A model generated the notes under the pieces. The model searched no databases. It was given only the letters and a program-made list of their open reading frames with translations, and had not been told where the DNA came from. This document shows, piece after piece, positions 34,492 to 50,100 of a stretch of 64,000 nucleotides of DNA. Position numbers and translations under genes: made by a program. Source of the DNA: Candidatus Heimdallarchaeota archaeon (GTDB lineage: Archaea > Asgardarchaeota > Heimdallarchaeia > Hodarchaeales > Hodarchaeaceae); contig RDOB01000002.1 in assembly GCA_011364965.1 (NCBI GenBank), positions 416,001 to 480,000 of the forward strand. The letters are read 5' to 3'. The first letter of the stretch is position 1; every line of letters begins with the position of its first letter.

Positions 34492-34507
34492 GTTACAGAA
34501 AAGTAAT
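34492..34507. promoter_or_regulatory. Putative operator GTTAC-N6-GTAAT upstream of the decayed 7-TM gene
   Basis: GTTACAGAAAAGTAAT, a 9/10 match to the two perfect boxes at 36030 and 36105. Confidence 0.55.
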
Positions 34508-34609
34508 CAAAAACTAAATATCAGCTTCTGAGGTTTATTTCATTTGCTTCTATGCAATCTTAACTTAAATTGATACGTTTCTATAGAATGTTGAAATATA
34601 GCCTCATTA

Positions 34610-35286
34610 TTGGAAACTGATTTACTTGGAGCTATAGTACTTTTACTAGTCGGAATAATAGTTTTTGTGCTCATTTTATTGCTCTTTAGAGAGTATATGA
34701 CGACAAAGAAACCTTATCATATGATATGGTATATTAGTTTTTTTTGTCTGTTTTATTTGTCTCTGGTGTGTTAATTATACTCTTTGGTTAGGGAGACACC
34801 TTCGGGAATCCTCTCGTCTCTCCAATCGCAGCCTTAATACATGCTGGAATAGCAATAGGTCTTGTATATGCTGTTAGGCCTGATATGAAATACGGGTTAT
34901 TCTATGCTGTTTATTGCATTGTTTTAATCGGATTATTAGCTGTTATGAAATATAATATCTTATTGTCTAGAATGACCTCAGTTACACTAATGACAGTGCA
35001 TATTCCATCGGGATTAATTATCTCATTTCTTCCCCTATATACAGCATTCTTAACAAAAGAAACAGAATGAATAAAAGCTTTTTTCAGAATTGGAGAATTA
35101 CTAATATCTTTCAGTGGTGTTTAATTAGCTATTACTATTGTTGTGACTAGAAATGTGGATCCTCTATTATTTATTTTTGATATTCTCCCCTACCTACTTT
35201 TAGTGGTTGGAATGCCATTCGTTTTGAGATTAGGGTTACCATCTAAATGGAAAATCGGTATACCAGTAATTAGCGGGCTATTTTAA
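34610..35286 (+). pseudogene. Decayed ~7-TM membrane protein gene
   Basis: Continuous hydrophobic protein (LETDLLGAIVLLLVG...VLFVSGVLIILFG*...VHIPSGLII...) broken by a frameshift in the T run at 34738-34745 and stops TAG 34789, TGA 35068, TAA 35122. Confidence 0.75.
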
Positions 35287-35429
35287 CCCCACTACTTTTT
35301 TTGTAAGCTTTTCAATTATAGAATTATATACGCTCTTTTAAAATAATACGTGTAAACGAAAATTTCACCTAATCAGATGTTAACTGAAATCTTAAGGGAG
35401 TAATAATTTTAACAGTGACACTTTACCAT

Positions 35430-46756: not shown

Positions 46757-47488
46757 ATGAATTTCATAGGTGGATTTAAAAAAAGTAAGATCAGTATAAA
46801 AATTCTATATATTTTAATCGGTGCTGCTATAGCAATTGGTATTGTAAGCGGAATTGGAAGTACCTGTACTACATTCGATCCTATTTGGTGGAGAAATCCA
46901 TCATTTTCAATTATTGGAGATTTACAAATTATCTTCATTATAGCTTATATTGCCACTTGGTTTACAGCAATTTTATGGATAGTTTTAATTTGGGCTTTAT
47001 CAGGTGGGAAAGATTGGTTTTACAAGATAGCTCTCTCAAATAGCGTTATTGGAATCTTGGGCGGCGCAATTCCTGTGGGAATCCTATTATACGAATATTG
47101 GGCAAGTTATGGCAATTCTGGCATGAGATTTACTCCTTCATGGTTTCGAACTATAATAAATTTGGTTTTATTTATTGTCCTTGTGATTCCAAAAATACGA
47201 ACTGAAATCCAAAATACCATCAAAAGTAATAGTTCAGCTATAGGAGGTTCTTCAGATTTAGGAACAGGATTAGCCCAATTGGCGTTTATTTTATTTGGTT
47301 TTGGAGTTGTTATGATACTACAGCCATTCATCATGCCTGCAACACATATCATTGATGGAGTAAACGTAGGATATGACTTTGAAGCGCTTCAATTCTATTG
47401 TGGTTTATTTTCTATTGTCCTTGGATTAATAACCCGGATCTCAGAACGCATTTATTCAAAAATTCAGTCTAGCAGAGTTATCTACTAA
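46757..47488 (+). CDS. Hypothetical 6-TM membrane protein
   Basis: Six hydrophobic segments; GIGSTC and PATH..GVN loop motifs; 15 nt upstream of the next gene. Confidence 0.75.
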   Translation: MNFIGGFKKSKISIKILYILIGAAIAIGIVSGIGSTCTTFDPIWWRNPSFSIIGDLQIIFIIAYIATWFTAILWIVLIWALSGGKDWFYKIALSNSVIGILGGAIPVGILLYEYWASYGNSGMRFTPSWFRTIINLVLFIVLVIPKIRTEIQNTIKSNSSAIGGSSDLGTGLAQLAFILFGFGVVMILQPFIMPATHIIDGVNVGYDFEALQFYCGLFSIVLGLITRISERIYSKIQSSRVIY

Positions 47489-47503
47489 ATAAGAGGTATA
47501 ATT

Positions 47504-49138
47504 ATGAATTCAATCGAGATGAATGTAACTAAAGATGGTAAATGGAATTGGTTGAAATATAAGCTATTCTATGGCGGAACTTTCAAAGGAATGATCACCT
47601 TCACTATTGTATATTTATTTGTGATCACCCTCTTTCTTTCAACTTTTTCTAAACCAGTCGTGGACCTTCTTGGAGCACCATTACTACCATTTTACTTTAG
47701 TGGCTCTACTGAAGATTTAATGGCGTTTTCTGCCCGTGTTGTGCTATTGTATCATGCAATAACGGTGCCTTTCCTTGCAATTTGTACATACTTTGTATTA
47801 GAGTACTGCGATGTCCGAGAAAAATTAAAATCCCGAATTAAATGGCCATTATTTTTCGGAAGTCTTTTAGCATCAGGAGCTGGAATGTTATATGCTTACT
47901 TTTTCACTGAAGCTTGGATAATACACGGTTTATACCTAGTAGGATTATCACTCTGTTTTTATGCAGGTGTTATCCTCCTTATTGCTGTCTTTCCGTCCAA
48001 AAATTTTCCTAAGAATTGGACTAAACAAGAAAATAAAAATAATATTTTATTTGAGCAATTAGCTTTAGTAACGATAACTATTTGTATCTTAGTGACAGTA
48101 TTTCTTGGAGCAGCAATCGGAGCTTATTTTGGCGTTGATGAGATGTCTGCATTCTTAGCAGAATATTTCCTTCGAGATCCTATAACAGAGCTTCCTTATC
48201 CCTATTTGGTCGCAGATCTCTTTGTAGATGGGATTAAAGGCCACTTACATGCAATGTTGGGTCAAATCGATGTTGTCATCCTCCTTGTGGTATTCAGATA
48301 TACAATGGGTGATATGCCTAAAGGAAAATGGCATCTGCTAGCTATGATTCTAGCGATTCCTGGGGCTTTTTTTATGTCATTGGGTTGTTGGTTTGTTACC
48401 TTCAAATCTGTCGTTCCAATAGTCACATTTGGAATTTTACAGGAATGGCCATTTGATATGCACTACTTAATCTATGTCGGAGCAGCAATTCTCGTCACTG
48501 TAGGCGCGATGTTGGCCCTTATGGGTTGGAATAAAATCGCTAGGAAAGAACTGGGTGATGCTTATGAATCAGCTACTTGGGGTACCCGTATAAAAGTAAT
48601 ATTCAAAGATCCTGTTAAATTTACTCTCTATTTCCTATTCTTATGGGTAAATATCGTGATGACATTTAGTGGTATCTTCCTAGCATTAAGTCTATATGAT
48701 GAATCTGTGCTAGCTAGAGTTCTTCCATTTTTGTCGTTCCGATCGGGTCCTCTTGCAGTTGAAACTACTGTTGCTCGTGGTCACTGGCACATTTTAGGAG
48801 CTTTATCAGCTGTTATATTATTCTTACTCTTCGTTGATATTCTTCGTATAGAAGGTAAGACACGTAAGGTAATGGGATGGCTAATGCTGGCAGGAAGTAT
48901 TTTCGCTTTCCTTTCTGGAATGCTTTATCTCTATGTTCCCCACCTTGATCAGAATTGGGCAAATAATCACGAGTTGTACGTTGACGTGCAGGAATTCTGG
49001 CAAGTGAATGCTCCATGGCTACCCCTCCTTTTAGATTTTGGAATACTTCTTATTGGCATAGCACTTGTCATCTTCTGCTTCTATGAATTGATTCAAATCA
49101 TCAACGGAAGACGAGATATCCATGCATTTCCCGAATGA
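47504..49138 (+). CDS. 12-TM His-rich membrane protein, heme-copper oxidase subunit I-like fold without CuB ligands
   Basis: TM2 LLYHAI, TM4 IIHGL, TM6 KGHLHAM, TM8 DMHYL, TM10 RGHWHIL; three 4-TM units; no HPEVY or HH motif. Confidence 0.7.
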   Translation: MNSIEMNVTKDGKWNWLKYKLFYGGTFKGMITFTIVYLFVITLFLSTFSKPVVDLLGAPLLPFYFSGSTEDLMAFSARVVLLYHAITVPFLAICTYFVLEYCDVREKLKSRIKWPLFFGSLLASGAGMLYAYFFTEAWIIHGLYLVGLSLCFYAGVILLIAVFPSKNFPKNWTKQENKNNILFEQLALVTITICILVTVFLGAAIGAYFGVDEMSAFLAEYFLRDPITELPYPYLVADLFVDGIKGHLHAMLGQIDVVILLVVFRYTMGDMPKGKWHLLAMILAIPGAFFMSLGCWFVTFKSVVPIVTFGILQEWPFDMHYLIYVGAAILVTVGAMLALMGWNKIARKELGDAYESATWGTRIKVIFKDPVKFTLYFLFLWVNIVMTFSGIFLALSLYDESVLARVLPFLSFRSGPLAVETTVARGHWHILGALSAVILFLLFVDILRIEGKTRKVMGWLMLAGSIFAFLSGMLYLYVPHLDQNWANNHELYVDVQEFWQVNAPWLPLLLDFGILLIGIALVIFCFYELIQIINGRRDIHAFPE

Positions 49139-50100
49139 TTAATAAAATCGTAAAGGATGCCGAAATGACAACAATTAATGGGGATAATGCAAATAACAAA
49201 AGATCCCCTTTTCTTTTTTTATCTTTTCAAATGTATTTGCATTTGATAAAGGCTAAACAAACAATTTTATTAGTCTATACAACAGTTTTTGCATATCTGA
49301 TAACTGCTTTACAATTCACATTCGATATTTTTACATTTTTATGGGTTTTTATCTCCGTTACATTAGCTGTATCGGGGAGTACCTTGTTTAATATGTATAT
49401 TGATCGTGATATTGATGCTATTATGGAAAGAACACAAAATCGACCTCTTCCCAGTGGAAAAATTGCTCCATCCACAGTTCTAAAGCATGGTTTCTTTTTT
49501 ATTGGAGCAGGTCTTATATTCTCTTTGTTGTATCTTAATATTTTGACAACATTTGTGATTTTTCTAGGATTTTTTTTTGATGTTATTATCTATTCCCTAA
49601 TTCTCAAAAGAAGAACCAAATATTCCATAATATTTGGAGGTATTGCTGGAGGTTTACCTGCGTTAGCTGGAAGGACAGCTGTTATAAATAGTGTTGATTT
49701 AATTGGTATTTTGCTCGGGTTATTTGTAGTAGCATGGATTCCATTACACATTCTCACTTTAGCTCTTCTACCAATAAATTTGAGAGATTATACAAAAGCA
49801 AAAATACCAATGTGGCCTGTTGCAAGTGGTGAAAGACAAACAATCCGAATAATTACTTTATCAGCAATCATTTCAGCCATTTTAACCATTATTACTGGAT
49901 TTTTATTAGAGATTGAATTAATATGGTTAATTCCATTACTTTTTTTTGGTTCATATATTCTAGCTATTGCTCTAAGAAATCTTTCATCGCCTACTACTCC
50001 TAGAACATTTAAACTCTTTAAAGCAGCATCAATTTATATGGCTCTTACGTTTGTCTTATTATTTATTGGCTTACTAATAACCATTGCTCCATATAGATAA
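49135..50100 (+). CDS. ctaB: Protoheme IX farnesyltransferase (heme O synthase)
   Basis: NMYIDRDIDAIMERTQNRPLPSG, YSLILKRRT, WIPLH, DYTKAKIPM; ATGA overlap with the upstream gene. Confidence 0.93.
   Translation: MINKIVKDAEMTTINGDNANNKRSPFLFLSFQMYLHLIKAKQTILLVYTTVFAYLITALQFTFDIFTFLWVFISVTLAVSGSTLFNMYIDRDIDAIMERTQNRPLPSGKIAPSTVLKHGFFFIGAGLIFSLLYLNILTTFVIFLGFFFDVIIYSLILKRRTKYSIIFGGIAGGLPALAGRTAVINSVDLIGILLGLFVVAWIPLHILTLALLPINLRDYTKAKIPMWPVASGERQTIRIITLSAIISAILTIITGFLLEIELIWLIPLLFFGSYILAIALRNLSSPTTPRTFKLFKAASIYMALTFVLLFIGLLITIAPYR

What the first reader, a model, noticed from the sequence alone, without database searches (positions are those of the whole stretch)
34492..50100. Candidate redox-regulated extracellular electron transfer island in an Asgard-like archaeon
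Seen: within ~15.6 kb lie a Cys-containing HxlR regulator, a surface-tethered multiheme cytochrome c, its complete maturation system (ccmFECDAB), an anchored CCDH Ig protein, and the 6-TM/HCO-fold/ctaB operon. A shared palindromic box appears upstream of three transcription units. No NrfH, NrfD or NapC-type quinol dehydrogenase is present to feed the cytochrome. Inference: the 12-TM His-rich protein, with the 6-TM and former 7-TM partners, may be the missing membrane conduit between the quinone pool and the surface cytochrome. This would form an undescribed respiratory or interspecies electron-transfer module, relevant to syntrophy models for Asgard archaea.
Basis: inference. Interest (0 to 1): 0.85.

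Follow-up and report, generated by a model that had tools for sequence, protein, structure and literature searches.

The report
Asgard oxidase-like and cytochrome gene island
An Asgard archaeon carries, side by side and under one redox-type regulator, an undescribed oxidase-fold haem O membrane enzyme and a surface seven-haem cytochrome with its own maturation system. Comparative genomics shows these are two separable modules, not an obligate electron-export chain.

Summary
The gene content described is real. Present are a Cys-rich HxlR regulator, the genome's only multihaem cytochrome c (7 CxxCH, membrane-tethered at both ends) and a full archaeal-type Ccm system (F, E with CxxxY, C, D-like, A, B). 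Also present are an anchored Ig protein with an invariant CC[G/D]H motif, a 6-TM gene, a 544-aa 12-TM His-rich protein ("HCOL") and haem O synthase. HCOL folds like haem-copper-oxidase subunit I (Z 20.3 to CcoN) but matches no Pfam or NCBIfam family.

The GTTAC-N6-GTAAC box is statistically real and recurs in Thor, Odin and other Asgard loci. In this window it lies before hxlR, the cytochrome gene and a decayed 7-TM gene, not before the HCOL operon.

The genome (87% complete) has MenA and Nuo-like genes. None of the nine other respiratory membrane families searched for was found.

The "conduit to the cytochrome" reading is weak. HCOL–ctaB (with 6-TM, 7-TM and hxlR) occurs without this cytochrome in 13 of 20 Asgard genomes, without any Ccm in 9 of 20, and in bacteria. 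The cytochrome/Ccm block occurs without HCOL in 8 of 15.

The most likely reading is two co-regulated modules. HCOL is probably a haem O redox enzyme of unknown substrate. This scan had already noted the HCOL–ctaB pair on other DNA.

The parts
34492..34507 (.). 1-mismatch copy of the palindromic box (GTTACAGAAAAGTAAT), just upstream of the decayed 7-TM gene
   Evidence: It is one of only 30 sites with 1 or fewer mismatches in 2.97 Mb.
34595..35283 (+). Pseudogene of a conserved ~220-270-aa multi-TM partner (the '7-TM' family) that precedes HCOL in other genomes
   Evidence: tblastn gives 60% identity to congener protein L029:5206-6021, split over two frames, with in-frame TGA and TAA stops. 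The family is also present in G055, G142, G071 and in a bacterial operon (L006:8427-9029).
35430..35915 (-). HxlR-family regulator with invariant C24, C43, C132, C137 and H139
   Evidence: Pfam HxlR, E 1.7e-15. Alignment of orthologues.
36030..36045 (.). Exact GTTAC-N6-GTAAC box 1
   Evidence: Only two exact copies exist in the genome.
36105..36120 (.). Exact GTTAC-N6-GTAAC box 2, 36 bp before the cytochrome start codon
   Evidence: An RNA contig starts at 36114.
36156..37754 (+). Heptahaem cytochrome c of the NrfA/MccA/OcwA superfamily. It has a highly conserved N-terminal tail and TM helix, a Thr-rich stalk and a C-terminal TM anchor. It appears to be monocistronic.
   Evidence: Hairpin at 37791-37814. 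RNA contigs cover 36114-37801.
38038..40242 (+). 734-aa anchored (a/a)6-barrel (GlcNAc-2-epimerase-like) surface protein, always found between the cytochrome gene and ccmF
   Evidence: The cyt-740aa-ccmF triad is conserved in L001-L003, L035 and L036.
40262..42472 (+). CcmF haem lyase
   Evidence: PF01578 at 1.5e-27 and TIGR00353 at 2.2e-46.
42450..42881 (+). CcmE-like haem chaperone, Cys type (CPSKY)
   Evidence: Weak PF03100 hit. 55-59% identical to the Thor and Odin neighbours. The motif was read.
42871..43554 (+). CcmC
   Evidence: PF01578 and TIGR01191.
43587..43742 (+). 51-aa CcmD-like one-TM ORF
   Evidence: It resembles the 50-aa ORF between ccmC and ccmA of the Odin locus L003.
43824..45227 (+). 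CcmA (43824-44525) and CcmB (44547-45227)
45319..46260 (-). Doubly anchored two-Ig-domain protein with an invariant CC[G/D]HxD..PP motif
46757..47488 (+). 6-TM partner protein (invariant C37 and H197), first gene of the HCOL operon
   Evidence: Of 12 genomes carrying it, 11 carry HCOL. A bacterial relative is L005:14033-14707.
47504..49138 (+). HCOL: 544-aa, 12-TM protein with the haem-copper-oxidase subunit I fold and seven invariant His
   Evidence: RNA contigs cover 48698-49077.
49135..50100 (+). Haem O synthase (CtaB). Its start overlaps the HCOL stop (ATGA).
   Evidence: TIGR01473 at 224.7 bits. It is the only CtaB among 7 UbiA-family genes in the genome.

Best explanation
The 15.6-kb stretch is a juxtaposition of two separable modules that share a thiol-type HxlR regulator and its GTTAC-N6-GTAAC operator.

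Module A is hxlR, a 6-TM gene, a 7-TM gene (decayed in this genome), HCOL and ctaB. HCOL is a very divergent relative of haem-copper-oxidase subunit I. It keeps the TM2 His and the TM10 HxH that bind the two haems. It replaces the canonical CuB motifs with HxH in TM6 plus one His at the start of TM8. It is supplied with haem O by its own synthase. I infer that it is a membrane redox enzyme. It is the only candidate menaquinol oxidiser found in this genome. My favoured guess is that it scavenges O2 or NO under redox stress, but its acceptor is unknown.

Module B is the cytochrome, the 734-aa surface protein, ccmFECDAB and the Ig protein. It is a self-contained system that makes and displays a single surface-anchored heptahaem cytochrome of the NrfA/MccA/OcwA family.

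Shown: the gene content, the fold, the conserved His pattern, the HCOL-ctaB linkage, the independence of the two modules, the operator statistics and the presence of transcripts. Inferred: haem O binding, the redox function and regulation by HxlR. Electron exchange between the two modules is possible where both exist, but neither module requires it.
For: Fold: the AF2 model has pLDDT 87.6 and pTM 0.90. The ten best of 48,161 PDB chains are all HCO subunit I (CcoN Z 20.3, NorB 19.2, bo3 17.7); the next unrelated chain scores Z 11. Foldseek and the ESM Atlas agree.

Ligands: H84, H141, H247, H249, H320, H427 and H429 are invariant in 49 sequences. A co-linear hhalign against 10 Asgard COX1 sequences pairs H84 with the TM2 haem ligand and H427/H429 with the TM10 HxH. 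It also places H320 at the CuB HH in one run.

Haem O link: ctaB is present in all 20 HCOL-positive Asgard genomes and lies next to HCOL in 17. Of those 20 genomes, 14 lack COX1. The bacterial neighbours are also TIGR01473 haem O synthases. This genome has one CtaB, and COX1 and CtaA were not found.

Module independence.

Regulator and operator: hxlR sits with 6-TM/7-TM/HCOL in cytochrome-less genomes. Three of the 30 sites with 1 or fewer mismatches in 2.97 Mb fall within 1.6 kb here. Sites with 1 or fewer mismatches also lie before the Odin cytochrome gene, the Thor and G075 HCOL genes and the G119 6-TM gene.

Expression: 100%-identical RNA contigs cover only the cytochrome gene and part of HCOL within the 19.5 kb laid.

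Missing alternatives: NrfD, NapC/NrfH, cytochrome b, cytochrome bd, NarI/HdrE and CybB were not found, while MenA and two NuoH-like genes were.

Cytochrome family: a profile search hits MccA at 3.9e-22, OcwA at 3.4e-20 and NrfA at about 1e-11.
Against: - The sequence link between HCOL and HCOs is weak: hhalign probability is 12-17%, PF00115 does not match, and there is no PDB sequence hit.
- I had no access to model coordinates. Whether H247, H249 and H320 form one metal site is therefore untested.
- No substrate, cofactor or metal has been measured.
- The two modules are adjacent in four Asgard classes and seem to share an operator. That could reflect a real functional coupling which phyletic counts understate.
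- One conserved partner (the 7-TM gene) is a pseudogene here, so the module may be impaired in this genome.
- The genome is 87.5% complete and four of six congeners carry COX1, so a missed oxidase cannot be excluded.
- The RNA evidence is two runs of one study, as assembled contigs at low depth.
Confidence: 0.5

Rival explanations
1. HCOL, with its small TM partners, oxidises menaquinol and passes the electrons outward to the tethered heptahaem cytochrome. The cytochrome then reduces an extracellular acceptor or a syntrophic partner (extracellular electron transfer).
For: - No other quinol-oxidising module was found in the genome.
- The island is syntenic in Heimdall-, Thor- and Odin-type loci.
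- The operator is shared.
- The cytochrome and HCOL are the only genes of the region seen in RNA contigs.
- Among the three closest solved relatives of the cytochrome are OcwA (6i5b, which I recall to be a cell-surface electron-transfer cytochrome of a Gram-positive bacterium) and a multihaem cytochrome listed as 6qvm.
- Relatives of the cytochrome carry PGF-CTERM-like surface anchors.
Against: - 13 of 20 HCOL-positive genomes lack this cytochrome, and 9 of 20 lack Ccm altogether.
- 8 of 15 cytochrome-positive genomes lack HCOL.
- Bacterial HCOL operons have no cytochrome.
- The cytochrome's conserved N-terminal TM helix is kept in HCOL-less genomes too, so HCOL does not explain its conservation.
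- A pure wire does not explain the extra invariant His residues (H141, H247/H249, H320), nor obviously the dedicated haem O supply.
Confidence: 0.12
2. The reverse coupling, as in cbb3 oxidase or cNOR. The membrane-anchored cytochrome c is the electron-donating subunit, and HCOL is the terminal reductase of O2 or NO. In genomes without Ccm, HCOL takes electrons from quinol instead.
For: - The best structural matches are CcoN and NorB. From established knowledge of those enzymes, both work with c-type cytochrome subunits that have an N-terminal TM anchor.
- The cytochrome's N-terminal tail and TM helix are its most conserved part.
- HCO families are known (established knowledge) to switch between cytochrome c and quinol donors, which would fit the patchy co-occurrence.
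- The regulator is of the HxlR redox type. A bacterial operon has a Crp/Fnr-type regulator, and another sits near hemerythrin, AhpC and Hcp genes.
Against: - The phyletic independence is the same as for the first rival.
- The cytochrome is a large NrfA/MccA-like protein with a stalk and a second anchor, unlike CcoO or NorC.
- No source of electrons for the cytochrome was identified.
- No conserved Tyr is seen in TM6 or TM7.
Confidence: 0.15
3. HCOL is not a redox enzyme. Instead it is a haem O handling, storage or transport protein, an alternative haem-modifying enzyme, or a membrane sensor. The cytochrome block is an unrelated neighbour.
For: - HCOL is tightly coupled to ctaB, to the point of overlapping stop and start codons.
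- The canonical CuB motifs are missing.
- No subunit II-like partner is present.
Against: - Haem ligand positions are retained in TM2 and TM10, in a fold whose solved members, as far as I know, are all oxidoreductases.
- No known haem O client (no COX1) was found in 14 of the 20 HCOL-positive genomes, so a handling protein would lack a known customer there.
- Bacterial relatives are fused to an FGE-sulfatase domain. From general knowledge this is a Cu- or Fe-dependent oxidase domain family, which points to catalysis.
Confidence: 0.1
4. The HCOL module is decaying in this genome and has no current function. The 7-TM pseudogene would be the first sign.
For: - There are three lesions in the 7-TM gene.
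- No operator copy lies before the 6-TM/HCOL/ctaB operon in this genome.
Against: - HCOL, 6-TM and ctaB are intact, and all invariant residues of the family are present.
- HCOL RNA contigs were found.
Confidence: 0.06

Closest known systems
Haem-copper oxidoreductase subunit I, especially C-family CcoN (PDB 3mk7_A) and cNOR NorB (4xyd_A)
   Same: Shares the 12-TM fold (Z 20.3 and 19.2 over about 400 aligned residues). Has a His in TM2 and an HxH in TM10 at the positions of the low-spin and high-spin haem ligands. Has a His aligned to the CuB/FeB HH position. Is supplied by a haem O synthase.
   Different: No match to PF00115 or to any PDB sequence. No HPxVY or HH motif; instead HxH in TM6, one His at the start of TM8 and a symmetric one at the start of TM4. 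No conserved Tyr in TM6 or TM7. No subunit II or III, CcoO or NorC homologue; the partners are novel 6-TM and 7-TM proteins. Found in anaerobes that lack ordinary oxidases.
OcwA of Thermincola potens (PDB 6i5b), MccA (4rkm), and octahaem and pentahaem nitrite reductases (NrfA)
   Same: Profile similarity at E 3.4e-20, 3.9e-22 and about 1e-11 to 1e-14. Shares the multihaem core and the long C-terminal helices with the FHNP motif. Located on the cell surface.
   Different: Has seven CxxCH motifs and no CxxCK. One haem motif reads QQCCM here, CxxCM in the Thor and Odin proteins and CxxCH in one relative. Has an N-terminal TM helix plus a Thr-rich stalk and a C-terminal anchor. No NrfH, NrfD or CymA partner was found.
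Archaeal variant of cytochrome c maturation System I (CcmE with CxxxY, no CcmH)
   Same: CcmF, CcmE (CPSKY), CcmC, a CcmD-like ORF, CcmA and CcmB are all present in one cluster.
   Different: A 734-aa (a/a)6-barrel surface protein is invariably inserted between the client cytochrome gene and ccmF. The whole system appears to serve a single multihaem client in this genome.
Thiol-based HxlR/DUF24 redox regulators (YodB, HypR, QsrR type; NCBIfam best hit RrpB)
   Same: Has the HxlR winged-helix domain, a conserved N-terminal Cys, a short inverted-repeat operator in its own divergent promoter region, and redox genes as targets.
   Different: Carries an extra invariant C-terminal CxxxxCxH cluster. 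The signal and DNA binding are untested.

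Membership tests
Haem-copper oxidoreductase superfamily (subunit I) | 12-TM subunit I fold | tested here: met
   The top 10 of 48,161 chains are all HCO subunit I, with Z 14.4-20.3; the next unrelated chain scores Z 11. Atlas TM-score is 0.65 to a PF00115 cluster.
Haem-copper oxidoreductase superfamily (subunit I) | His in TM2 plus HxH in TM10 as haem ligands | tested here: met
   H84, H427 and H429 are invariant. 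They align to the invariant H94, H404 and H406 of Asgard COX1. The alignment is weak (probability 12%) but co-linear.
Haem-copper oxidoreductase superfamily (subunit I) | CuB/FeB ligands: one His in TM6 (HPxVY) and HH at the end of TM7 | tested here: not met
   Neither motif is present. TM6 has H247-x-H249, and a single H320 aligns to the HH position in one hhalign run. Whether these form a metal site could not be tested without coordinates.
Haem-copper oxidoreductase superfamily (subunit I) | Match to the family profile PF00115 | tested here: not met
   No Pfam or NCBIfam hit. None of the 111 homologues carries a Pfam domain.
Haem O synthase (CtaB/CyoE) | Score above the TIGR01473 equivalog cut-off | tested here: met
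   224.7 bits against a cut-off of 210.3.
System I cytochrome c maturation (archaeal variant) | CcmA, B, C, D, E and F present; CcmE with CxxxY | tested here: met
   CPSKY was read in the CcmE-like ORF. The CcmE Pfam hit is below its cut-off.
NrfA / octahaem / MccA / OcwA multihaem superfamily | Profile similarity to solved members | tested here: met
   MccA 3.9e-22, OcwA 3.4e-20, octahaem nitrite reductases about 5e-14, NrfA 1.7e-11.
NrfA (ammonia-forming nitrite reductase proper) | CxxCK catalytic haem motif | tested here: not met
   The protein has seven CxxCH and no CxxCK.
Known extracellular-electron-transfer chains (CymA/NapC, NrfH, NrfD, cytochrome b-type quinol dehydrogenase feeding multihaem cytochromes) | A recognised quinol dehydrogenase in the genome | tested here: not met
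   PF03264, PF03916, PF00033, PF02665 and PF01292 were all without a hit in the 87.5%-complete genome.
HxlR/DUF24 thiol-based redox regulators | HxlR domain, conserved N-terminal Cys, inverted-repeat operator near its own gene | tested here: met
   PF01638 at 1.7e-15. C24 is invariant in 6 orthologues. DNA binding itself is not testable with these tools.

The most novel reading that the evidence does not exclude
In Asgard archaea that carry both modules, HCOL, its 6-TM and 7-TM partners and the tethered NrfA/OcwA-like heptahaem cytochrome form one undescribed respiratory chain. It would link the menaquinone pool to the cell surface in either direction: quinol to an external acceptor or partner, or an external donor or cytochrome to O2/NO at the HCOL active site. 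A thiol-sensing HxlR would switch it on.
Probability: 0.2. Interest if true: 0.85.

Novelty: new variant of a known kind. Interest (0 to 1): 0.62.

Why it matters
Debate on the origin of eukaryotes turns partly on whether Asgard archaea respire, tolerate oxygen, or exchange electrons with partners. Published surveys note that haem O biosynthesis is encoded in all Heimdallarchaeia lineages (bioRxiv 10.1101/2024.07.04.601786). They also note that the electron paths around Asgard terminal oxidases are incomplete (bioRxiv 10.1101/2025.02.26.640444).

Here the haem O synthase has an identifiable client that is not a canonical oxidase. It is an unannotated oxidase-fold protein found in 20 of 151 Asgard genomes sampled and in Chloroflexota-type bacteria. 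In this genome it is the only candidate quinol-oxidising haem protein found, and its transcripts appear in sediment or soil metatranscriptomes.

The adjoining, co-regulated surface cytochrome with a dedicated maturation system is the only multihaem cytochrome c of the organism. Together these give concrete, testable targets: a protein to purify, an operator to test, and a cytochrome to localise. They bear on how these anaerobes deal with oxidants or partners.

My 5 full-text searches and 4 papers read found no description of either the HCOL family or the island.

Tried and rejected
1. A complex prediction of HCOL with the 6-TM protein, with two haems riding along, gave 'no answer' (score 0.00). 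It is no evidence either way.

2. The AF2 model of the cytochrome was poor (pLDDT 50.8), so I ran no fold search on it and used a sequence profile against the PDB instead.

3. A profile of the HCOL family against PDB sequences gave no oxidase hit. Global hhalign failed. Only local mode gave a co-linear alignment.

5. Five full-text literature searches found no description of the family or the island. I read four papers on specific points.

6. I considered that the cytochrome's conserved N-terminal TM helix packs on HCOL. This is weakened because the helix is also matched in HCOL-less genomes.

7. I looked for a conserved membrane redox neighbour of the cytochrome in HCOL-less genomes. None was found, only FAD-oxidase/CCG genes in one locus and Nuo/Mrp antiporter-like genes in another.

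8. A 1-mismatch box lies 154 bp upstream of a nuoA-like gene. Four intergenic near-boxes outside the island is about what chance predicts, so I do not count it as part of the regulon.

9. I tried to use synteny to prove loss of the COX cluster. The flanks of the congener's cluster map to different contigs here. All I can say is that at least 7 genes of that cluster have no homologue in this assembly.

10. RNA contigs were absent from the ccm genes, the 6-TM gene, ctaB and the flanking genes. Contigs show presence only, so this is not evidence that those genes are silent.

Full report
**What is there**

The window is AT-rich (about 34% G+C). It lies on a 646-kb contig of a 2.97-Mb, 16-contig genome that is 87.5% complete.

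- An HxlR regulator at 35430-35915(-).
- A 532-aa cytochrome with seven CxxCH motifs at 36156-37754.
- A 734-aa anchored (a/a)6-barrel protein.
- CcmF, a CcmE-like protein with the archaeal CPSKY motif, and CcmC.
- A 51-aa CcmD-like ORF at 43587-43742 that resembles the one in an Odin locus.
- CcmA and CcmB.
- A 313-aa Ig-domain protein on the minus strand.
- A 6-TM gene, a 544-aa 12-TM protein with no family match (HCOL below), and a haem O synthase whose start overlaps the HCOL stop. The synthase scores 224.7 bits on TIGR01473, above the 210.3 cut-off.

A six-frame scan of the whole genome finds only one ORF with more than one CxxCH, and that is this cytochrome. The Ccm system therefore appears to serve a single multihaem client.

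**The 12-TM protein (HCOL)**

It has 111 homologues in the 5.8-billion-protein set, none with a Pfam domain. They run from Heimdall- and Hodarchaeales-type proteins (53-77% identity) through Thor (46%) and Odin (44%) to Anaerolineae/Chloroflexi at about 30%. An exhaustive profile search finds only 325 clusters among 1.84 billion representatives, so the family is rare.

Seven histidines are invariant in 49 aligned sequences: H84, H141, H247, H249, H320, H427 and H429. E220, R224, W428 and others are also invariant.

The AF2 model is confident (pLDDT 87.6, pTM 0.90). Against 48,161 PDB representatives the ten best matches are all haem-copper-oxidoreductase subunit I. They include cbb3 CcoN at Z 20.3, cNOR NorB at 19.2, bo3 at 17.7 and ba3 at 17.1. 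The next unrelated chain scores Z 11. Foldseek and the ESM Atlas agree.

Sequence similarity to oxidases is marginal, with no PDB sequence hit. However, a local profile-profile alignment to ten Asgard COX1 proteins is co-linear over the whole length:
- H84 aligns to the TM2 low-spin haem ligand.
- H427 and H429 align to the TM10 HxH.
- H249 falls at the position of the cross-linked Tyr in TM6.
- In one run, H320 aligns to the CuB HH pair.

The canonical HPxVY and HH motifs are absent.

I conclude that HCOL is a deeply divergent member or sister of the HCO superfamily. It very probably binds two haems and has a rebuilt site where CuB normally sits. I could not measure distances in the model, so I do not endorse the 'copper-free' wording.

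**The haem O link**

I searched a sample of 151 Asgard genomes. HCOL is clearly present in 20. All 20 have a CtaB, and in 17 it lies beside HCOL, usually immediately downstream. Fourteen of the 20 have no COX1.

Bacterial loci carry HCOL, an FGE-sulfatase-domain gene and a TIGR01473-type haem O synthase in one operon. One bacterial protein is an HCOL-FGE fusion.

In this genome only one of the seven UbiA-family genes is a CtaB. One other is a MenA homologue. COX1 and haem A synthase were not found. The COX cluster of a congener has no homologues anywhere in this assembly.

HCOL is therefore the only visible client for haem O. Follow-ups of this scan reached the same view on other genomes.

**Partners of HCOL**

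The 6-TM protein has an invariant Cys and an invariant His. It occurs in 12 of the 151 genomes, and 11 of those are HCOL-positive. A bacterial operon holds a 24-26% identical relative.

The degraded stretch at 34595-35283 is the remnant of a second partner family. It is 60% identical, over two reading frames, to an intact 271-aa gene that directly precedes HCOL in a congener. It is 35-44% identical to such genes in three other Asgard genomes. This family also has a bacterial member (L006:8427-9029), 26-32% identical to the intact Asgard proteins. Here it carries one frameshift and in-frame TGA and TAA stops.

**The cytochrome module**

The cytochrome family profile matches MccA (3.9e-22), OcwA (3.4e-20), a multihaem cytochrome listed as 6qvm (1e-15), octahaem nitrite reductases and NrfA. 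It has no CxxCK motif.

Its most conserved part is the N-terminal cytoplasmic tail and TM helix. Relatives end in a PGF-CTERM-like signal. This clade instead has a Thr-rich stalk and a TM anchor.

The order cytochrome, then the ~740-aa protein, then ccmF is conserved in Heimdall, Thor and Odin loci and in HCOL-less genomes. The Ig protein, with its invariant CC[G/D]HxD..PP motif, is conserved in the first three.

**Are the two parts one system?**

Evidence for a link:
- They are adjacent in loci from four Asgard classes.
- An operator connects them (next section).
- In two metatranscriptome runs of one study, 100%-identical contigs cover only the cytochrome gene (36114-37801, ending in a 10-bp-stem hairpin) and part of HCOL (48698-49077), out of the 19.5 kb laid.

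Evidence against a link:
- Of the 20 HCOL-positive genomes, only 11 have any Ccm gene and only 7 have this cytochrome family. Six of those 7 are congeners of the window's organism.
- The HCOL-positive genomes without Ccm include one single-contig genome and several that are 97-100% complete.
- Eight of 15 cytochrome-positive genomes lack HCOL.
- In cytochrome-less genomes the order is 6-TM, hxlR, 7-TM, HCOL, ctaB.
- One congener has exactly the window's neighbourhood (XDH genes upstream; metallophosphoesterase and EutA downstream) without the 10-kb cytochrome/ccm/Ig block, which lies on another contig there.

The island is thus a mosaic. The regulator and the small TM genes belong to HCOL, and the cytochrome block is a movable, self-sufficient unit.

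**The operator**

GTTAC-N6-GTAAC occurs exactly twice in 2.97 Mb. Both copies lie between hxlR and the cytochrome gene.

Allowing one mismatch gives only 30 sites genome-wide, about 1e-5 per bp. Three of them fall within 1.6 kb here, where 0.016 would be expected.

An exact copy lies 39 bp before the Odin cytochrome gene. One-mismatch copies lie before HCOL in the Thor locus and in G075, and before the 6-TM gene in the congener G119.

In the window itself no copy precedes the 6-TM/HCOL/ctaB operon.

The HxlR orthologues share four invariant Cys and one invariant His. This is consistent with thiol-based sensing, but that role is an inference.

**Electron supply**

The genome has a MenA homologue and two NuoH-like loci. 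No hit was found for COX1, cytochrome bd, cytochrome b, NrfD, NapC/NrfH, NarI/HdrE or Ni_hydr_CYTB.

It makes HCOL the only candidate haem-containing quinol-oxidising protein found, with the caveat that 12.5% of the genome is unsampled and four of six congeners carry COX1.

**Verdict**

The best-supported reading (about 0.5) is two co-regulated but separable modules. HCOL is a haem O-dependent oxidase-fold redox enzyme whose acceptor is unknown. O2 or NO scavenging is my favoured guess. It rests on the fold, the regulators, and neighbours such as hemerythrin, AhpC, Hcp and Crp/Fnr genes in bacterial loci.

The extracellular-electron-transfer conduit (about 0.12) and a cbb3/cNOR-like arrangement with the cytochrome as donor (about 0.15) remain open for those organisms that have both modules.

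I found no paper describing the HCOL family or the island. The HCOL-ctaB pairing had already been noted by this scan on other genomes.

Noticed in passing
window 34595-35283: Pseudogene of a conserved multi-TM HCOL partner. There is a frameshift near 34750, and TGA (where the congener has Trp) and TAA (where the congener has Leu) lie in frame. The congener's copy is intact.
   Followed up: yes
window 45319-46260 (-); L001:7285-8896, L002:203-1120, L003:7135-8064: The doubly anchored Ig protein has an invariant CC[G/D]HxD..PP motif just outside the N-terminal TM helix. It could be a metal (copper?) site or chaperone. The Heimdall locus L001 has two copies.
   Followed up: partly
window 36156-36290 (cytochrome residues 1-45): The N-terminal tail and TM helix (W15, L22, Y24, W25, F30, G32, T33, A36, G38, G40) are the most conserved part of the cytochrome family, including in HCOL-less genomes. 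This suggests packing on an unidentified membrane partner, or a special maturation signal.
   Followed up: partly
window 36564-36590 (QQCCMTTRW) and alignment A4: One haem-motif position varies across the family: CxxCH in one relative, CxxCM in the Thor and Odin proteins, QQCCM here. A second CLHCM motif of distant relatives is lost in this clade.
   Followed up: partly
P0113 and P0192 (bacterial or metagenomic relatives): HCOL occurs fused to an FGE-sulfatase domain (785 aa) and to PD40 beta-propeller repeats (777 aa). In two bacterial operons a separate FGE-domain gene sits between HCOL and ctaB.
   Followed up: partly
own genome C3:43119 (L033 about 7120): A 1-mismatch box (GTTATTTAGTAGTAAC) lies 154 bp upstream of a nuoA-like gene that heads a Nuo-like operon, divergent from a B12/radical-SAM gene. 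Its occurrence is compatible with chance.
   Followed up: partly
window 38038-40242: A 734-aa GlcNAc-2-epimerase-like (a/a)6-barrel protein with a C-terminal anchor always sits between the cytochrome gene and ccmF, 19 nt before ccmF here. It has no CxxC motif. It may be a maturation or display factor.
   Followed up: partly
G102:C4:140447-141994 and G075:C1:1410889-1411533: The congener G102's HCOL match contains one in-frame TGA, and G075's 6-TM match contains one in-frame TAG. These could be recoding, sequencing error or decay.
   Followed up: no
window 31659-34491: Xanthine-dehydrogenase-type molybdopterin and 2Fe-2S subunit genes lie directly upstream. The same synteny is found in a congener (L029).
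   Followed up: no
L004 (Anaerolineae locus): HCOL stands without ctaB among hemerythrin, ferredoxin, nitroreductase, AhpC and hybrid-cluster-protein genes, a context typical of oxidative or nitrosative stress.
   Followed up: no
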